Sequence record: PV245933.1
Strand: one strand, 5' to 3'
Source of the DNA: Escherichia phage nasanit
DNA: 39,625 nucleotides
The notes beneath the pieces are model-generated. The model did no database searches, had not been told where the DNA came from, and worked only from the letters and a program-made list of their open reading frames with translations. Positions 45-12,520 of this stretch are shown one piece after another. Positions within the stretch are counted from its first letter, which is position 1. Each line of letters opens with the position of its first letter. The position numbers and the translations under genes were made by a program.

Positions 45-251
45 ATGTTGTCATTGGATTTTAACAACGAGGTAGTGAAGGCTGCTCCGATTGTAGGGAC
101 AGGGGTTGCCGATGGTGCTGCCAGACTGTTCTTCGGCCTGTCACTTAACGAGTGGTTCTATGTAGCCGCAATTGCCTACACAGTGGCTCAAATTGGTGCC
201 AAGGTAGTCGATGTGATTATCAAATGGAAGAAGGAGGGTAAAGATGTCTAA
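45..251 (+). CDS. 17.5: Holin, T7 gp17.5-like (type II holin)
   Basis: 68-aa ORF with AGGAGG SD about 8 nt upstream; hydrophobic core and basic C-terminus; close resemblance to T7-group holin as I recall it. Confidence 0.85.
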   Translation: MLSLDFNNEVVKAAPIVGTGVADGAARLFFGLSLNEWFYVAAIAYTVAQIGAKVVDVIIKWKKEGKDV

Positions 252-7347: not shown

Positions 7348-9999
7348 ATGACTAACGTAATCAACGCACCAAAGAACGACTTCTCTGACATCGCTAACGC
7401 AATCATGCCGTACAACATTCTGGCTGACCATTACGGTGCACAGCTTGCAGCTACGCAGTTACAGCTTGAGCACGAAGCGCACACTGAGGGTGAGAAGCGT
7501 TTTCTTAAGGCAATGGAACGTCAAATCAAAGCGGGTGAGTTCGGTGATAACGCAGTGGCTAAACCGCTCCTGTCATCTCTCGCACCGAAGTTTATCGAGG
7601 CGTGGAACACTTGGTTCACTGAAGTGGAAGCGAAGCGTGGCAAGCGTCCAGTGGCTTACAATCTGGTACAGAAGGTTGCACCTGAAGCTGCTGCATTCAT
7701 CACACTGAAGGTCACGCTGGCTTGCTTGACGAAAGAAGAGTTCACCAACCTGCAATCGGTCGCTACTAAGATTGGTCGTAGCATTGAAGATGAACTGCGT
7801 TTTGGTCGCATCCGTGACGAAGAAGCGAAGCACTTTAAGAACCACGTACAGGAGGCACTGAACAAGCGCGTTGGCATCGTCTACAAGAAAGCATTCATGC
7901 AAGCCGTAGAGGGTAAGATGCTTGATGCTGGTCAACTGCAAACCAAGTGGACTACATGGACACCTGAAGAATCAATTCACGTTGGTGTGCGCATGTTGGA
8001 ACTGCTCATCGGGTCTACTGGTCTCGTTGAGTTACACCGCCCGTTCGCTGGGAACATCGAGAAGGATGGCGAGTACATCCAGTTAACAGAACAATATGTA
8101 GACCTGCTGTCTAAACGTGCTGGTGCACTGGCTGCAATCGCTCCGATGTATCAGCCTTGCGTGGTCCCTCCGAAGCCTTGGACTTCTCCGGTTGGTGGTG
8201 GCTATTGGGCGGCTGGTCGCAAGCCTCTCTCTCTGGTTCGTACTGGTAGCAAGAAGGGACTGGAACGTTACAACGATGTGTACATGCCTGAAGTTTACAA
8301 GGCGGTGAACATCGCACAGAATACTCCTTGGAAGATTAACAAGAAGGTTCTGGCAGTGGTCAACGAGATTGTGAACTGGAAGCATTGCCCGGTTGAAGAT
8401 GTACCTGCTCTCGAACGTGGTGAACTGCCTGTCAAACCTGAAGACATCGACACGAACGAAGCGGCTCTGAAAGCGTGGAAGAAAGCGGCCTCCGCAATCT
8501 ATCGCAAAGAGAAAGCACGAGTTTCTCGCCGCATGAGCATGGAGTTCATGTTAGGTCAGGCCAATAAGTTCGCACAGTTCAAAGCTATCTGGTTCCCAAT
8601 GAACATGGACTGGCGCGGTCGTGTGTATGCTGTGCCGATGTTTAACCCGCAAGGCAACGACATGACCAAAGGCTTGTTGACGCTCGCTAAAGGTAAACCA
8701 ATCGGTGTCGATGGGTACTACTGGCTGAAGATTCACGGTGCTAACACTGCTGGCGTGGACAAGGTGGACTTTGCAGAACGCATCAAGTTCATTGATGACA
8801 ACCATGAGAACATCATGAGCGTAGCTGCTGACCCGATTGCTAACACTTGGTGGGCCGAGCAAGACTCTCCGTTCTGCTTCCTCGCGTTCTGCTTCGAGTA
8901 TGCAGGAGTCCAGCACCACGGGATGAACTACAACTGCTCTCTTCCGCTGGCGTTTGATGGTAGCTGCTCCGGTATTCAGCACTTCTCCGCAATGCTTCGT
9001 GATGAAATTGGTGGTCGCGCTGTTAACTTACTGCCGAGCAAGGAAGTCCAAGACATCTACCGCATCGTAGCGGAACGTGTCAACGAGATTCTGAACCAAG
9101 ATGTTATCAACGGGACCGACAACGAAGTAGAGACCGTGACCAACAAGGACACAGGGGAAATCACTGAGAAGCTCAAGCTGGGTACTAAAGAACTAGCTGG
9201 TCAGTGGCTGGCCTACGGTGTGACCCGCAAGGTCACTAAGCGTTCGGTTATGACGTTGGCTTACGGTTCCAAAGAGTACGGATTCCGTGACCAAGTTCTT
9301 GAGGATACCATTCAGCCAGCTATCGACGATGGCAAGGGCTTGATGTTCACTCAACCGAACCAAGCGGCTGGCTATATGGCTAAACTGATTTGGAACGCGG
9401 TAACGGTGACAGTGGTCGCAGCGGTTGAAGCAATGAACTGGCTGAAGTCTGCGGCTAAACTTCTAGCTGCTGAAGTCAAGGACAAGAAGACCAAAGAGGT
9501 TCTCCGCAAGCGCTGCGCGGTACATTGGGTTACTCCTGATGGCTTCCCGGTCTGGCAGGAATACAAGAAGCCAGTACAGACCCGCTTGAACCTGATGTTC
9601 TTAGGCCAGATTCGTCTACAGCCTACCGTGAACACCAACAAGGATAGCGGAATTGATGCTCGTAAGCAGGAGTCAGGCATCGCACCTAACTTTGTCCACT
9701 CAATGGATGGAAGCCACCTGCGCATGACTGTGGTCCGCTCCAATGAGGTCTACGGTGTGGAATCGTTCGCACTGATTCACGACTCCTTTGGTACTATCCC
9801 TGCTGATGCTGGCAACCTGTTTAAAGCAGTGCGCGAAACGATGGTCAACACTTACGAAGAGAACGATGTACTAGCAGACTTCTATGAGCAATTTGCTGAC
9901 CAGTTACATGAATCACAGCTTGACAAGATGCCTGAGATGCCAGCTAAAGGTTCTCTGGACCTGCAAGAAATCCTTAAGTCAGACTTTGCGTTTGCCTAA
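7348..9999 (+). CDS. 1: Single-subunit DNA-dependent RNA polymerase, gp1
   Basis: 883 aa (same length as T7 RNAP); C-terminal ...SDFAFA; specificity loop PTVNTNKDSGIDARKQESGIAPNFVHS retains Asn at the T7 N748-equivalent position. Confidence 0.97.
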   Translation: MTNVINAPKNDFSDIANAIMPYNILADHYGAQLAATQLQLEHEAHTEGEKRFLKAMERQIKAGEFGDNAVAKPLLSSLAPKFIEAWNTWFTEVEAKRGKRPVAYNLVQKVAPEAAAFITLKVTLACLTKEEFTNLQSVATKIGRSIEDELRFGRIRDEEAKHFKNHVQEALNKRVGIVYKKAFMQAVEGKMLDAGQLQTKWTTWTPEESIHVGVRMLELLIGSTGLVELHRPFAGNIEKDGEYIQLTEQYVDLLSKRAGALAAIAPMYQPCVVPPKPWTSPVGGGYWAAGRKPLSLVRTGSKKGLERYNDVYMPEVYKAVNIAQNTPWKINKKVLAVVNEIVNWKHCPVEDVPALERGELPVKPEDIDTNEAALKAWKKAASAIYRKEKARVSRRMSMEFMLGQANKFAQFKAIWFPMNMDWRGRVYAVPMFNPQGNDMTKGLLTLAKGKPIGVDGYYWLKIHGANTAGVDKVDFAERIKFIDDNHENIMSVAADPIANTWWAEQDSPFCFLAFCFEYAGVQHHGMNYNCSLPLAFDGSCSGIQHFSAMLRDEIGGRAVNLLPSKEVQDIYRIVAERVNEILNQDVINGTDNEVETVTNKDTGEITEKLKLGTKELAGQWLAYGVTRKVTKRSVMTLAYGSKEYGFRDQVLEDTIQPAIDDGKGLMFTQPNQAAGYMAKLIWNAVTVTVVAAVEAMNWLKSAAKLLAAEVKDKKTKEVLRKRCAVHWVTPDGFPVWQEYKKPVQTRLNLMFLGQIRLQPTVNTNKDSGIDARKQESGIAPNFVHSMDGSHLRMTVVRSNEVYGVESFALIHDSFGTIPADAGNLFKAVRETMVNTYEENDVLADFYEQFADQLHESQLDKMPEMPAKGSLDLQEILKSDFAFA

Positions 10000-10006
10000 C
10001 GGAATC

Positions 10007-10029
10007 TAATACGACTCACTATTGGGAGA
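10007..10029 (+). promoter_or_regulatory. Phage RNAP promoter (phi1.1A position)
   Basis: TAATACGACTCACTATTGGGAGA. Confidence 0.8.
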
Positions 10030-10090
10030 CCCTTGGGGGTTTCCCTACTTTAAGATAACTTTAAGTTTAACTTTAAGAGGAAACATAATC

Positions 10091-10648
10091 ATGTTTACTT
10101 TCATCACTTCAGTAGGCGCTCTCGTAGCAACCATTCTTGCAGCAACATACTACAACCGTTCAAAGGTATTTCTCACCAAGCTAATCAAAGAAGAGAAGAA
10201 CTCTCACGCACTCAAAGAGAGACTTGAAGATGGGTGGCGAGAGAGGCAGGAACTAGCTGGTCGAATCCGTACTTTAGAGTTCGAACAACAATATGACATG
10301 TCGAACCAACGAGAACTCATTGAGCGTCTACGCGCTGAGGCAATGGAGTACCGCAAGGAACTTAAAGAGGCAAAGAGTACCATCCGTGAGTACACATACA
10401 GTGACATCACGTCTATCAAGTTTACTGCTCACATCCCGGATGCTGGATGGAAGCGCACTGAGTTCAAGCTAGGCATAGGGTCTTGCGGCAAAGAGGTTAC
10501 GTGTTTGCACTGGAAAGAACAGTCGGACCGCTACCTGCTGACACAGACGTGCACTGATGGTGAGCGCAAAGAGTTCACCTATTATAAGAAAGACGTAGCT
10601 GGTCGCATTGAGATTGCACGTAAGGTTGCAGACAATACGACTCACTAA
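10091..10648 (+). CDS. Hypothetical membrane-anchored protein, 185 aa (gene 1.05 position)
   Basis: Start MFTFITSVGALVATILAATYY (TM helix) after AAGAGGA SD; coiled-coil-like middle; Cys-containing C-terminus; track start 10022 rejected (no SD, inside promoter leader). Confidence 0.6.
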   Translation: MFTFITSVGALVATILAATYYNRSKVFLTKLIKEEKNSHALKERLEDGWRERQELAGRIRTLEFEQQYDMSNQRELIERLRAEAMEYRKELKEAKSTIREYTYSDITSIKFTAHIPDAGWKRTEFKLGIGSCGKEVTCLHWKEQSDRYLLTQTCTDGERKEFTYYKKDVAGRIEIARKVADNTTH

Positions 10649-10655
10649 TGGGAAA
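10633..10655 (+). promoter_or_regulatory. Phage RNAP promoter (phi1.1B position), overlaps 3' end of the preceding ORF
   Basis: CAATACGACTCACTAATGGGAAA. Confidence 0.75.
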
Positions 10656-10663
10656 CACTGAAA

Positions 10664-10708
10664 GTTAAACTCAAGGTCATCTACATGGTGGCCTTCATGA
10701 TTAACTGT
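10664..10708 (+). promoter_or_regulatory. Conserved processing hairpin (RNase III site-like, R1.1 position)
   Basis: GTTAAACTCAAGGTCATCTACATGGTGGCCTTCATGATTAAC. Confidence 0.45.
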
Positions 10709-10737
10709 CAACGATACTACCAAGAGGAAATAACATT

Positions 10738-10887
10738 ATGCGTACCAACTTTGAACCAACCACTAAGCGCAACAACATCATCAATGAACATGGTGCTGAA
10801 TGGCAGGAACGTAAAGACCGCATGAAGAAACGTCACAAGACACAACGTGGCAACTCTGAGAAACGCAACTGGAAGGAGGCACTCTAA
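10738..10887 (+). CDS. 1.1: gp1.1-like small basic protein (49 aa)
   Basis: ORF MRTNFEPTTKRNN...; AAGAGGA SD; stop overlaps start of 1.2 (TAATG). Confidence 0.55.
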   Translation: MRTNFEPTTKRNNIINEHGAEWQERKDRMKKRHKTQRGNSEKRNWKEAL

Positions 10888-11159
10888 TGGGTCGCTTATA
10901 CAGTGGTAACTTAATAGCATACAAAGACGCTATCGAACGGCTTAAAGAAGACCACGATGCAAATGTGGTCGTTGAGACTTATCGCTATGAGGACTTCACA
11001 CAGCGACGGATGGTCGCCGGAGAGACACTTCGAGTGGTCTTACGGGATGGCTTAATGCTGACCGCTAAGTGTTTCGAACAGGACGACGAAGACGTTCGTT
11101 GCAATGCACAGACTGAATGGCTTCGTAAGGTACACAACGACCTGAAGCACTGGAAGTAA
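10887..11159 (+). CDS. 1.2: gp1.2-like protein (host dGTPase inhibitor in T7)
   Basis: 90 aa starting MGRLYSGNL, ending ...DLKHWK, as in T7 gp1.2. Confidence 0.8.
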   Translation: MGRLYSGNLIAYKDAIERLKEDHDANVVVETYRYEDFTQRRMVAGETLRVVLRDGLMLTAKCFEQDDEDVRCNAQTEWLRKVHNDLKHWK

Positions 11160-11264: not shown

Positions 11265-12296
11265 ATGGAAATCACATTCAAGACTAACCCATTCAAAGCA
11301 GTATCCTACGTTGAGTCTGCCATTAAGAAAGCACTCGACAAGGCTGGCTACCTGATTGCTGACACTAAGCATGATGGTGTACGTGGTAACATCGTGGTTG
11401 ACAATACGGCTGACTGCCTGTGGCTGTCCCGTGTCTCCAAGACCATCCCCGCGCTTGAGCACCTTAATGGGTTCGACCAACGCTGGGCTAATGTTCTCAA
11501 AGATGACCGCTGGATTTTCCCTGATGGCTTCATGCTTGATGGTGAACTGATGGTCAAAGGTGTTGACTTCAACACAGGGTCTGGCCTACTGCGTACCAAG
11601 TGGCTCAAGAAGACGAACTGTGGATTTGATATTGGTGGAGTAGAGCCTCTCAAGGGGAGTAAAGTAGACTTCTGCTTAGACCCTAAGAAACTTAAGGTTG
11701 TCCTGTATGCCGCTATGCCGTATCACGATATGGTAGAAGGCAAAGAGTATGGCGTTATGTCCCTCCTGATGCAAGAGCATGTGCGTTCCCTCATTCCGGT
11801 TCTTAGTGAACACTTCCCGGAAATCACTTGGGAACTCTCTGAGGCCAAAGAAGTCTACGACATGGTAGAACTTCAGGAACTCTACGAGAAAGCCCGTGCC
11901 GATGGTCATGAAGGTCTGGTCGTCAAAGACCCGCTTGAAGTCTACAAGCGTGGCAAGAAGTCTGGCTGGTGGAAGATGAAGCCTGAGAATGAAGCTGATG
12001 GTATTATCGTTGGCCTCAATTGGGGTACTCCGGGTCTGGCTAATGAAGGTAAAGTGATTGGCTTCGAGGTTCTCTTGGAGTCCGGTCGTGTAGTCTCTGC
12101 CAACAACATTAGCCAAGCGTTGATGGATGAGTTCACTGCTGCCGTCAAACATGCTGAGTCTGTGGGTATGGGTATGCCGTACACTGGCTTCGCCTGTCAG
12201 GTTGCCTACATGGAGGAAACTCCAGACGGTTCTCTGCGTCACCCATCGTTCGTTATGTTCCGTGGAACTGAGGATAACCCAAAGGAGAAAATGTAA
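11265..12296 (+). CDS. 1.3: ATP-dependent DNA ligase, gp1.3
   Basis: 343 aa; adenylation motif KHDGVRG near N-terminus; overall T7 ligase pattern. Confidence 0.92.
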   Translation: MEITFKTNPFKAVSYVESAIKKALDKAGYLIADTKHDGVRGNIVVDNTADCLWLSRVSKTIPALEHLNGFDQRWANVLKDDRWIFPDGFMLDGELMVKGVDFNTGSGLLRTKWLKKTNCGFDIGGVEPLKGSKVDFCLDPKKLKVVLYAAMPYHDMVEGKEYGVMSLLMQEHVRSLIPVLSEHFPEITWELSEAKEVYDMVELQELYEKARADGHEGLVVKDPLEVYKRGKKSGWWKMKPENEADGIIVGLNWGTPGLANEGKVIGFEVLLESGRVVSANNISQALMDEFTAAVKHAESVGMGMPYTGFACQVAYMEETPDGSLRHPSFVMFRGTEDNPKEKM

Positions 12297-12478
12297 TGCT
12301 TATCTTTGACGAGAACGGTTGGAGAGTGTATCAACACCCACACCTGATGATATTCCACATATCAAAGTGGATGGAAGGAGATGACCGGAGAAGCTACGGG
12401 AGAACTTGGGACTACTTTACTGTCCATGAGTGCCATAGTATTAAGGAAGTCAAAGAGTACCTACGAAACAATATGTAA
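12296..12478 (+). CDS. Hypothetical protein, 60 aa (gene 1.4 position)
   Basis: ATG overlaps ligase stop; intact ORF. Confidence 0.45.
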   Translation: MLIFDENGWRVYQHPHLMIFHISKWMEGDDRRSYGRTWDYFTVHECHSIKEVKEYLRNNM

Positions 12479-12486
12479 AGACAAAT

Positions 12487-12520
12487 GGTCAGTCCTTAAC
12501 GGGCTGGCCTTTTTGTGTTT
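12487..12520 (+). terminator. Intrinsic terminator (early terminator TE position)
   Basis: RNA hairpin GGUCAGUCC-UUAAC-GGGCUGGCC (G-U wobbles) followed by UUUUUGUGUUU. Confidence 0.6.

What the first reader, a model, noticed from the sequence alone, without database searches (positions are those of the whole stretch)
10007..10660. Membrane-anchored 185-aa ORF between the two origin-region promoters, with the second promoter embedded in its 3' end
In T7 the phi1.1A and phi1.1B promoters are close together and form the primary replication origin region. Here they are separated by a 558-bp gene whose product has an N-terminal TM helix, a charged coiled-coil-like segment and a Cys-containing C-terminal domain. 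The phi1.1B promoter overlaps its last codons. T3-like phages have a gene 1.05 in this slot, so this may be a homologue, but its function is unknown to me. An early membrane protein could act in superinfection exclusion, replisome membrane anchoring or host interference.
Basis: partly seen in the sequence, partly recalled or inferred. Interest (0 to 1): 0.5.

Follow-up and report, generated by a model that had tools for sequence, protein, structure and literature searches.

The report
Membrane-tethered T3 gene 1.05 homologue
This is a real, translated early gene of a T7-like phage: the long, membrane-anchored form of the widespread but uncharacterised "gene 1.05" protein of phage T3, carried on an optional cassette that close relatives swap, truncate or lack.

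Summary
A 185-codon ORF (10091-10648, +) lies between two phage-RNA-polymerase promoters (10007-10029 and 10633-10655), and the second promoter covers its last four codons and stop. The window is a Berlinvirus-type T7-like phage, 97.5% identical here to phage ErnstBeyeler. BA14, 285P and Kvp1 already annotate this ORF as gene 1.05. Residues 106-176 match Pfam PF25755 (T3 gene 1.05 protein, E 1e-29). T3's own protein (90 aa) is that domain alone. Residues 1-105 add a transmembrane helix and a heptad-repeat helix.

In 80 of 81 anchored relatives the charge pattern puts the conserved six-stranded beta domain in the cytoplasm. Both halves are under purifying selection (dN/dS about 0.05 and 0.1-0.16). 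The N-terminal half is exchanged as a cassette between near-identical phages. Yersinia phage Berlin, of the same genus, lacks the whole gene, and distant relatives carry it elsewhere in their early region.

The domain has no solved structural relative, no annotated function, and no paper on it in the searched library. My best inference is a dispensable early host-directed binding module, oligomerised and pinned to the inner membrane. I found no support for an origin-linked or exclusion role. It is a new member of a known, uncharacterised family, of modest interest.

The parts
10007..10029 (+). Phage-RNA-polymerase promoter phi1.05, an exact match to this phage's consensus
   Evidence: 0 mismatches; 10 sites in the window against 0 in shuffles. 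BA14, Kvp1 and T3 annotate the equivalent site as promoter phi1.05.
10024..10045 (+). Predicted hairpin at the 5' end of the phi1.05 transcript (GGGAGACCC-UUGG-GGGUUUCCC)
   Evidence: -16.3 kcal/mol, 98% of the ensemble, z -2.3. It is conserved in Berlin. Its resemblance to the T7 phi10 transcript start is from my own knowledge.
10046..10090 (+). AT-rich leader with three ACTTTAAG repeats and the Shine-Dalgarno AAGAGGAAA; by analogy with T3, the likely primary-origin AT-rich element
   Evidence: 77-80% AT. The T3 record places its primary origin in the homologous leader. Berlin has five repeat copies there. Origin function here is inferred, not tested.
10091..10648 (+). Gene 1.05 homologue, 185 aa including the stop codon
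10091..10405 (+). N-terminal module (aa 1-105): transmembrane helix (about aa 2-21) plus a heptad-repeat helix of about 80 residues; an exchangeable cassette
   Evidence: KD 1.88; AF2 helix 2-102; heptad signal. DNA identity to Carena, JSS1, BP12A and WW1 falls to 26-50% only across 10083-10383. dN/dS is 0.1-0.16.
10406..10621 (+). Conserved PF25755 domain (aa 106-177): six-stranded beta meander with invariant G128, G130, C132, G133, Q152, Y164, G171, R172
   Evidence: dN/dS is about 0.05.
10622..10648 (+). Low-confidence C-terminal tail (aa 178-185, pLDDT below 50 for 182-185); its last residues N-T-T-H and the stop are spelled by the promoter sequence
   Evidence: The NTTH ending is shared by relatives with T7-type promoters and absent in T3.
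10633..10655 (+). Phage promoter phi1.1, overlapping the last four codons and the stop of gene 1.05
   Evidence: 3 mismatches. It is annotated as phi1.1 in BA14 and Kvp1.
10659..10710 (+). Hairpin with an internal loop, equivalent to the T3 RNase III site R1.1, ending the gene 1.05 message
   Evidence: -18 kcal/mol, z -3.6. T3 annotates R1.1 at the same relative place. There was no Rfam match.
10722..10740 (+). Second copy of the AAGAGGAAA-N-ATG motif at the start of gene 1.1; together with 10076-10093 it bounds the 647-bp segment that Berlin lacks
   Evidence: alignment of window, Berlin and T3.

Best explanation
Gene 1.05 encodes a dispensable, early-expressed accessory protein aimed at the host cell.

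Shown:
- It has its own consensus phage promoter and a leader with a 5' hairpin, AT-rich repeats and a strong ribosome-binding site.
- It is under purifying selection.
- Its conserved part is a beta domain of about 72 residues, found alone in T3 and many other Autographiviridae.

Inferred:
- That domain is the working part and binds a conserved cytoplasmic target, a host protein or possibly a small ligand.
- The N-terminal heptad helix oligomerises the protein.
- The transmembrane helix inserts N-out/C-in, so several copies of the domain hang about 80 helical residues below the inner face of the cytoplasmic membrane. The target is captured or blocked there.
- By analogy with T7 early proteins such as Ocr, gp0.4, gp0.6, gp1.2, gp2 and gp5.9 (my own knowledge), the likely outcome is neutralisation of a host function or defence, useful only in some hosts.

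The target itself is unknown.
For: - Gene identity: PF25755 E 1.2e-29; phrog_8103 and phrog_6440; annotated as gene 1.05 in BA14, 285P and Kvp1.
- Translated and constrained: dN/dS is about 0.05 in the C domain, for example dN 0.032 against dS 0.61 versus BA14. It is 0.09-0.16 in both N-module alleles.
- The domain is the constant unit. The family has 194 clusters at 50% identity. The 179 sequences in hand sort into anchor + long helix + domain (68), anchor + short linker + domain (13), helix without anchor + domain (19), domain alone (72) and 7 unclassified.
- Cytoplasmic orientation: K/R count is 0.02 before the hydrophobic core against 2.4 in the 12 residues after it, in 80 of 81 anchored members.
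- Oligomerising helix: AF2 helix 2-102 with pLDDT above 90 and period-3.5 hydrophobicity.
- Accessory and modular: the N module is swapped between phages that are 93-100% identical in the flanks. Berlin lacks the gene. Truncated natural variants exist: fPS-7 g003 and P0033. A paper on sixteen related Yersinia phages reports g003 in two variants or absent (PMC5923468).
- Early-region placement in distant relatives.
- Essentially phage-restricted: one motif hit in genomes of 185,579 species, on a phage-like contig.
Against: - There is no direct evidence for any target or phenotype.
- The invariant residues could be purely structural (Gly turns, buried Cys) rather than a binding site.
- Membrane insertion and oligomerisation are predictions only.
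- Because the gene is lost so easily, it could be nearly neutral in laboratory hosts.
Confidence: 0.5

Rival explanations
1. It is a binder or 'sponge' for a small molecule or nucleotide signal, or a tiny enzyme. The invariant Gly-rich loop (L-G-x-G-x-C-G-K) together with Q152, D156, K160, Y164 and R172 would form a ligand pocket, possibly between subunits brought together by the coiled coil. It would intercept an immune second messenger near membrane effectors.
For: - The polar residues are invariant across phages of many host genera. That pattern fits a ligand site better than a host-specific protein interface.
- G128-x4-G133-K134 resembles the start of a phosphate-binding loop (read from the sequence).
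- An oligomerising module is present.
- The gene lies in the early accessory region.
Against: - There is no similarity to Pfam families other than PF25755 and no structural match to solved proteins.
- The Walker-type Ser/Thr after GK is absent (E135).
- An all-beta domain of 72 residues is too small for a P-loop fold.
- To my knowledge, known sponges are soluble.
Confidence: 0.15
2. It is a replication or origin-linked factor. The protein would tether the primary origin or the replisome to the membrane through a nucleic-acid-binding small barrel, which would explain the gene's position between the origin promoters.
For: - The gene sits directly after the leader that T3 annotates as its primary origin.
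Against: - Berlin keeps the promoter and AT-rich leader but lacks the gene.
- T7 lacks it as well (my own knowledge).
- The Phi-S1 and ISAO8 homologues are not at this position.
- The T3 form has no anchor.
- The domain is only mildly basic (14 K/R against 11 D/E).
Confidence: 0.1
3. It is a superinfection-exclusion or membrane-acting protein: an early inner-membrane protein that blocks genome entry of a second phage or alters the envelope.
For: - An N-terminal transmembrane helix is predicted.
- Expression is early.
- The N module is variable, which could reflect an arms race.
Against: - The predicted topology leaves only one or two residues outside the membrane, with the conserved domain in the cytoplasm.
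- 91 of the 179 sequences sorted have no anchor at all.
- The window has its own holin and i-spanin with the opposite charge pattern, so it is not a lysis protein either.
Confidence: 0.1
4. It is not a functional gene but a chance or decaying ORF kept open only because the DNA carries promoter and origin signals.
For: - Truncated and deleted variants occur.
- The last codons are dictated by the promoter.
- The ErnstBeyeler copy has R172C at an invariant position.
Against: - dN/dS is 0.05-0.16, with dS up to 0.9.
- Homologues are present in 561 phage records and 194 clusters at 50% identity.
- There is a strong Shine-Dalgarno sequence and a confident fold.
Confidence: 0.03

Closest known systems
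Enterobacteria phage T3 gene 1.05 protein (NP_523302; Pfam PF25755 Phage_T3_1_05)
   Same: The beta domain is homologous: residues 106-176 cover profile positions 2-72 of 73. The genomic slot is the same, between promoters phi1.05 and phi1.1, with phi1.1 overlapping the 3' end and the R1.1 site and genes 1.1 and 1.2 following. Function is unknown in both.
   Different: T3's protein is 90 aa, with only a short N-terminal extension and no anchor or coiled coil. T3 lacks the second common Cys (C154). In T3 the promoter overlap is 6 nt rather than 16 nt.
gp1.05 of Berlinvirus phages BA14, 285P, Kvp1 and PhiV-1 (the BA14 note reads 'fusion protein with gene 1.05')
   Same: Same 185-aa architecture, at 91-98% protein identity, with the same promoters.
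   Different: The exact sequence of the window protein is not in the 15-billion-protein collection, so it is a new allele. The C domain of the window groups with 285P, ErnstBeyeler and Carena rather than with BA14 and Kvp1 (dS 0.08-0.1 against 0.6-0.8).
'Fusion protein' of Klebsiella phage KP32 and gp1.05 of phiSG-JL2 and EcoDS1/ST31
   Same: All have the same C-terminal domain preceded by a helical N-terminal region.
   Different: The N-terminal regions are unrelated in sequence. The ST31/EcoDS1 type has a coiled coil without an anchor, plus a 30-aa tail.
Sm/Hfq, WYL and SspB-type small beta barrels
T7-type i-spanin gp18.5 (N-terminal anchor plus coiled coil)
   Same: Both have a single N-terminal transmembrane helix followed by a long helical region.
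   Different: The window has its own gp18.5 at 612-1055, with Lys residues before the helix (N-in, C-out) and late expression. Gene 1.05 has the opposite charge pattern and is early.

Membership tests
Pfam PF25755 (Phage_T3_1_05) | Score above the curated gathering threshold (27 bits) over most of the 73-position profile | tested here: met
   102.5 bits, E 1.2e-29, profile positions 2-72 of 73, residues 106-176. All 42 diverse relatives also match.
Pfam PF25755 (Phage_T3_1_05) | Family-wide invariant residues (LGxGxCG loop, Q, Y, GR) | tested here: met
   G128, G130, C132, G133, Q152, Y164, G171 and R172 are all present in the window protein.
Gene 1.05 of T3-like and Berlinvirus phages (positional orthologue) | Located between the RNA polymerase gene and gene 1.1, flanked by promoters phi1.05 and phi1.1 | tested here: met
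   RNA polymerase gene 7348-9999, promoters at 10007 and 10633, gene 1.1 at 10738-10887 and gene 1.2 at 10887-11159. The order is the same in T3, BA14 and Kvp1.
Single-pass inner-membrane protein, N-out/C-in | A hydrophobic segment of about 19 or more residues with positive charges on the cytoplasmic side | tested here: met
   KD 1.88 for residues 1-19, no K/R before the segment and R23, K25, K30, K33 after it. The same pattern holds in 80 of 81 anchored relatives. This is a prediction only.
Single-pass inner-membrane protein, N-out/C-in | Experimental membrane association and orientation | not testable with these tools
   This needs fractionation and PhoA/GFP or protease-accessibility assays.
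Coiled-coil oligomer | Heptad periodicity in a long helix | tested here: met
   Period-3.5 power is 46 against 4-29 at other periods. a/d positions are 0.5-0.88 hydrophobic against 0.15-0.25 elsewhere. AF2 gives helix 2-102. The oligomeric state was not tested.
Zinc-binding Cys domain (implied by 'Cys-containing domain') | Four conserved Cys/His ligands | tested here: not met
   Only C132 is invariant. C154 is absent in T3, C138 is variable and H115 alternates with N.
P-loop NTPase | GxxxxGK[ST] within an alpha/beta fold | tested here: not met
   G128-x4-G133-K134 is followed by E135, not S/T. The domain is all-beta, with six strands.
Sm/Hfq or WYL small-barrel nucleic-acid binders | Significant structural or sequence similarity | tested here: not met
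Two-component spanin (i-spanin) | N-in/C-out anchor, late lysis cassette, embedded or adjacent o-spanin | tested here: not met
   The charge pattern is opposite and the location is early. The window has a separate gp18.5-like gene with an embedded ORF at 612-1055.
Known anti-phage defence proteins (PADLOC) | Match to a model in the library | tested here: not met
   0 families at E up to 1. The library holds host defence proteins, not phage counter-defence proteins, so this says little about an anti-defence role.

The most novel reading that the evidence does not exclude
The PF25755 domain is a new class of phage early effector. It would be a small cytoplasmic beta barrel with an invariant Gly-Cys-Gly-Lys loop that neutralises a conserved bacterial immune or housekeeping component, either a protein or a signalling nucleotide. 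Phages would tune its potency or location by swapping interchangeable N-terminal coiled-coil and membrane-anchor cassettes. The anchored form would act at the inner face of the membrane, for example against a membrane-bound defence effector.
Probability: 0.25. Interest if true: 0.6.

Novelty: new member of a known kind. Interest (0 to 1): 0.3.

Why it matters
The family occurs in at least 561 sequenced phages, including many therapeutic Klebsiella, Escherichia, Salmonella and Yersinia podoviruses. Yet every record examined calls it 'hypothetical' or 'fusion protein'.

A defined function would fill one of the last blanks in the T3/T7-type early region. It could also reveal a new host target or counter-defence.

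The analysis here yields concrete, testable hypotheses. The domain is the working unit and faces the cytoplasm. The N-terminal module is an exchangeable tether. The gene is optional within a single genus, so natural plus/minus pairs already exist for comparison (for example Berlin against BA14 or this phage).

For this window alone, the result is mainly annotation: a known gene with unknown function.

Tried and rejected
- Literature. Searches for gp1.05, 'gene 1.05', PF25755, accession numbers and BA14/Kvp1/285P gave only genome-annotation tables and no functional study. The accessory-gene screen preprint 10.1101/2023.04.06.535777 does not contain '1.05', 'BA14', 'Autographiviridae' or 'coiled', and its only 'transmembrane' hits concern RonA. 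Kiljunen et al. 2005 (PMC545605), on nonessential genes of phiYeO3-12, is not held.
- Sequence libraries. PDB sequences, PADLOC and NCBIfam gave nothing.
- N-terminal module alone. The search found only one truncated relative, so there is no evidence that the module is fused to other effector domains.
- Bacterial homologues. The profile alignment was too divergent for the search for related loci. A degenerate DNA pattern for FKLGLGPCGK found a single phage-like contig. This pattern is stringent, so divergent bacterial copies could be missed.
- Rfam on 9900-11000: no family.
- Terminator scan after the ligase gene (12200-12500): nothing found. Early read-through by host RNA polymerase is therefore inferred only from the BA14 annotation of TE.
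- Rejected ideas: lipoprotein (the residue before the Cys is usually Pro and there is no signal peptide), Zn finger, P-loop, spanin, and a paralogue elsewhere in the window.

Full report
**What is there.** The window is a complete, circularly permuted genome of a T7-like phage of the Berlinvirus group. The stretch 9900-10900 is 97.5% identical to Escherichia phage ErnstBeyeler and 92-96% identical to PhiV-1, P483, 285P, BA14 and Kvp1. The phage RNA polymerase gene ends at 9999. An ORF runs from ATG 10091 to the stop at 10646-10648 (185 aa) with AAGAGGAAA seven bases upstream. Genes 1.1 (10738-10887), 1.2 (10887-11159) and the ligase gene follow. The phage promoter consensus matches exactly at 10007-10029 and with three mismatches at 10633-10655. 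It has ten matches in the window and none in shuffled sequence.

**Identity.** Residues 106-176 match Pfam PF25755, 'Enterobacteria phage T3 gene 1.05 protein', at E 1.2e-29, far above threshold. The whole protein matches PHROG families of unknown function. Kvp1 notes similarity to the C-terminus of T3 gene 1.05, and both records mark the flanking promoters phi1.05 and phi1.1. The T3 record has the same order: phi1.05, primary origin, gene 1.05, phi1.1 overlapping the gene's end, RNase III site R1.1, then genes 1.1 and 1.2. T3's protein is only 90 aa and corresponds to the C-terminal domain.

**Anatomy of the protein.**
- AlphaFold2 with a 21-sequence alignment gives one helix across residues 2-102 and six beta strands across 106-177. 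Mean pLDDT is 88 and the last residues are disordered. The domain modelled alone gives the same six-strand meander.
- Residues 1-19 have Kyte-Doolittle hydropathy 1.88.
- Residues 26-102 show hydrophobic periodicity peaking at 3.5 residues, with a/d positions enriched in hydrophobic residues. This is consistent with a coiled coil.
- An exhaustive profile search of 1.84 billion representative proteins found 194 clusters at 50% identity. I sorted the 179 family sequences then in hand (the listed representatives plus the closer relatives). They fall into four architectures: anchor + long helix + domain (68), anchor + short linker + domain (13), helix without anchor + domain (19) and domain only (72). 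Seven were unclassified.
- In the 81 anchored members there are on average 0.02 Lys/Arg before the hydrophobic core and 2.4 in the twelve residues after it, and 80 of 81 follow this pattern. By the positive-inside rule the N-terminus is outside and the conserved domain is cytoplasmic.
- Across 42 diverse members the invariant residues are G128, G130, C132, G133, Q152, Y164, G171 and R172. F125, L127, V136, L139, D156, K160 and F162 are nearly invariant. Only one Cys is invariant, so this is not a zinc-type Cys domain.

**It is a real, constrained gene.** I made codon comparisons with eleven relatives. In the C domain, dN/dS is about 0.05: for example dN 0.032 against dS 0.61 versus BA14, and 0.043 against 0.95 versus PYPS50. 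In the N module it is 0.09-0.16, in both alleles of that module. The tblastn search finds the family in 561 of 50,697 phage records.

**It is modular and optional.**
- In Carena, JSS1, BP12A and WW1 the DNA is 93-100% identical to the window up to about 10080 and again from about 10400. Identity drops to 26-50% exactly across the N-terminal module. The replacement module has the same architecture (anchor plus helix, 109 aa) but an unrelated sequence. Carena's C domain is identical in protein to the window's (dN 0, dS 0.1).
- Yersinia phage Berlin, the type species of the genus, has the same promoter, the same 5' hairpin, the same ACTTTAAG repeats and the same ribosome-binding site. These run directly into gene 1.1. 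There are only 113 bp between the polymerase gene and gene 1.1.
- Relative to Berlin, window 10091-10737 is a 647-bp insertion or deletion bounded by two copies of AAGAGGAAA-N-ATG. The segment holds the ORF, phi1.1, the R1.1-like hairpin and a second ribosome-binding site.
- Other natural variants are truncated. fPS-7 g003 has the anchor plus only the last three strands. P0033 has the anchor and helix with the domain deleted. A study of sixteen related Yersinia phages lists g003 as present in two forms or absent (PMC5923468).
- In Pseudomonas phage Phi-S1 the domain-only homologue lies just upstream of the polymerase gene. In Yersinia phage ISAO8 it sits among the small early genes, upstream of the primase gene and with no RNA polymerase gene in the 6.6 kb examined.
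- The position between 'origin' promoters is therefore a feature of some Studiervirinae, not of the family.

**Expression signals.** The phi1.05 transcript would begin with a stable hairpin (-16.3 kcal/mol). A 77-80% AT leader with three ACTTTAAG repeats and the ribosome-binding site follows. From my own knowledge this resembles the T7 phi10 leader with its translational enhancer, which suggests good expression. Downstream of phi1.1 a hairpin with an internal loop (10659-10710, z -3.6) matches the place of T3's RNase III site R1.1. By analogy with T3, the AT-rich leader is the likely origin element. This is inferred, not tested.

**Search for function.**
- No paper in the searched library says anything about function.
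- No solved structure is related by sequence.
- The viral structure library returns only uncharacterised proteins of Autographiviridae infecting Pectobacterium, Salmonella, Klebsiella, Dickeya, Pseudomonas, Ralstonia, Aeromonas, Providencia and Delftia.
- PADLOC and NCBIfam give nothing.
- A degenerate DNA pattern for the invariant loop found one contig among genomes of 185,579 bacterial species, and it looks phage-derived.
- All names that sources give the cluster members read are 'hypothetical', 'uncharacterized' or 'fusion protein'. The window's exact sequence is not in the collection.

**Most likely mechanism (inference).** The constant, strongly constrained unit is the cytoplasmic beta domain. 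The variable units are an oligomerising helix and, in some phages, a membrane anchor. The gene is early, well expressed, optional and phage-restricted. That profile fits the host-directed early proteins of T7-type phages, which bind and disable single host components (my own knowledge of Ocr, gp0.4, gp0.6, gp1.2, gp2, gp5.9). I therefore favour, at about 0.5 confidence, a binding module for a conserved cytoplasmic target. In this phage it would be displayed as an oligomer on an 80-residue stalk under the inner membrane.

**Rivals.**
- Ligand or second-messenger binding through the invariant Gly-Cys-Gly-Lys loop and the polar invariants: 0.15.
- An origin or replisome tether: 0.1. This is weakened by Berlin, Phi-S1, ISAO8 and the anchor-less forms.
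- Superinfection exclusion: 0.1. This is weakened by the cytoplasmic orientation and by the many soluble forms.
- A non-functional ORF: 0.03. This is contradicted by the selection data.
- A spanin: excluded. The window has its own holin (45-251) and i-spanin (612-1055), and the i-spanin has the opposite charge pattern.

**Verdict.** The protein is a new allele of a known, annotated but functionally blank family. What this analysis adds is the domain map, the predicted orientation, the invariant residues, the evidence for cassette exchange and for presence/absence within one genus, and the uncoupling of the gene from the origin. Interest is modest (0.3). It would rise if a target were found.

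Noticed in passing
window 10024-10090; L021 (Yersinia phage Berlin) 135-250: The phi1.05 leader has a 5' hairpin (GGGAGACCC-UUGG-GGGUUUCCC), three ACTTTAAG repeats (five in Berlin, about two in T3) and AAGAGGAAA. It resembles the T7 phi10 leader/translational enhancer and coincides with the place T3 annotates as its primary origin. The repeat number varies between phages.
   Followed up: partly
window 10091-10737 against L021 246: Relative to Berlin, the whole gene 1.05 + phi1.1 + R1.1 unit is a 647-bp indel flanked by two AAGAGGAAA-N-ATG motifs (10076-10093 and 10722-10740). This suggests gain or loss by recombination between the repeated ribosome-binding regions.
   Followed up: partly
window 10659-10710: A hairpin with an internal loop (-18 kcal/mol, z -3.6) lies at the position of the T3 RNase III site R1.1. 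No Rfam family matches it.
   Followed up: partly
window 10431-10520: A patch inside the conserved domain shows 63-75% DNA identity to BA14, Kvp1, CarlSpitteler and SEqdws-315, but 96-100% to 285P, ErnstBeyeler and Carena. The protein stays nearly the same. This marks a second, older recombination mosaic within the C domain.
   Followed up: partly
L008 (phage ErnstBeyeler) 398-955: The deposited ErnstBeyeler copy has Cys in place of the family-invariant Arg172 (GCIEIA instead of GRIEIA). It could be a real loss-of-function variant or a sequencing error.
   Followed up: no
L018 (Yersinia phage fPS-7) 1120-1317; P0033; P0180: Natural truncations exist: a 65-aa protein with the anchor plus only the last three strands of the domain, and anchor-plus-helix proteins with the domain deleted or missing. 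They show the slot tolerates decay.
   Followed up: partly
L020 (Sphingobium sp. CCH11-B1 contig, 19 kb) 2699-2956: This is the only bacterial-genome match to the invariant-loop pattern. It is an 85-aa domain-only homologue next to a 5'-3' exonuclease-like ORF and small ORFs. It is probably a podovirus-like contig or prophage remnant in an alphaproteobacterial assembly.
   Followed up: partly
window 10738-10887: Gene 1.1 encodes a 49-aa, very basic protein (MRTNFEPTTKRNN...). It is conserved across T3, T7 and Berlin-type phages and is also without known function.
   Followed up: no
window 45-251, 612-1055, 652-981: The canonical late lysis genes lie at the start of the permuted window: a holin-like 68-aa ORF, a gp18.5-type i-spanin of 147 aa, and an embedded +1-frame ORF that is probably the o-spanin.
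   Followed up: partly
window 12200-12500: The simple scan found no intrinsic-terminator-like site after the ligase gene, although BA14 annotates the early terminator TE there. The scan's rules may miss it.
   Followed up: no
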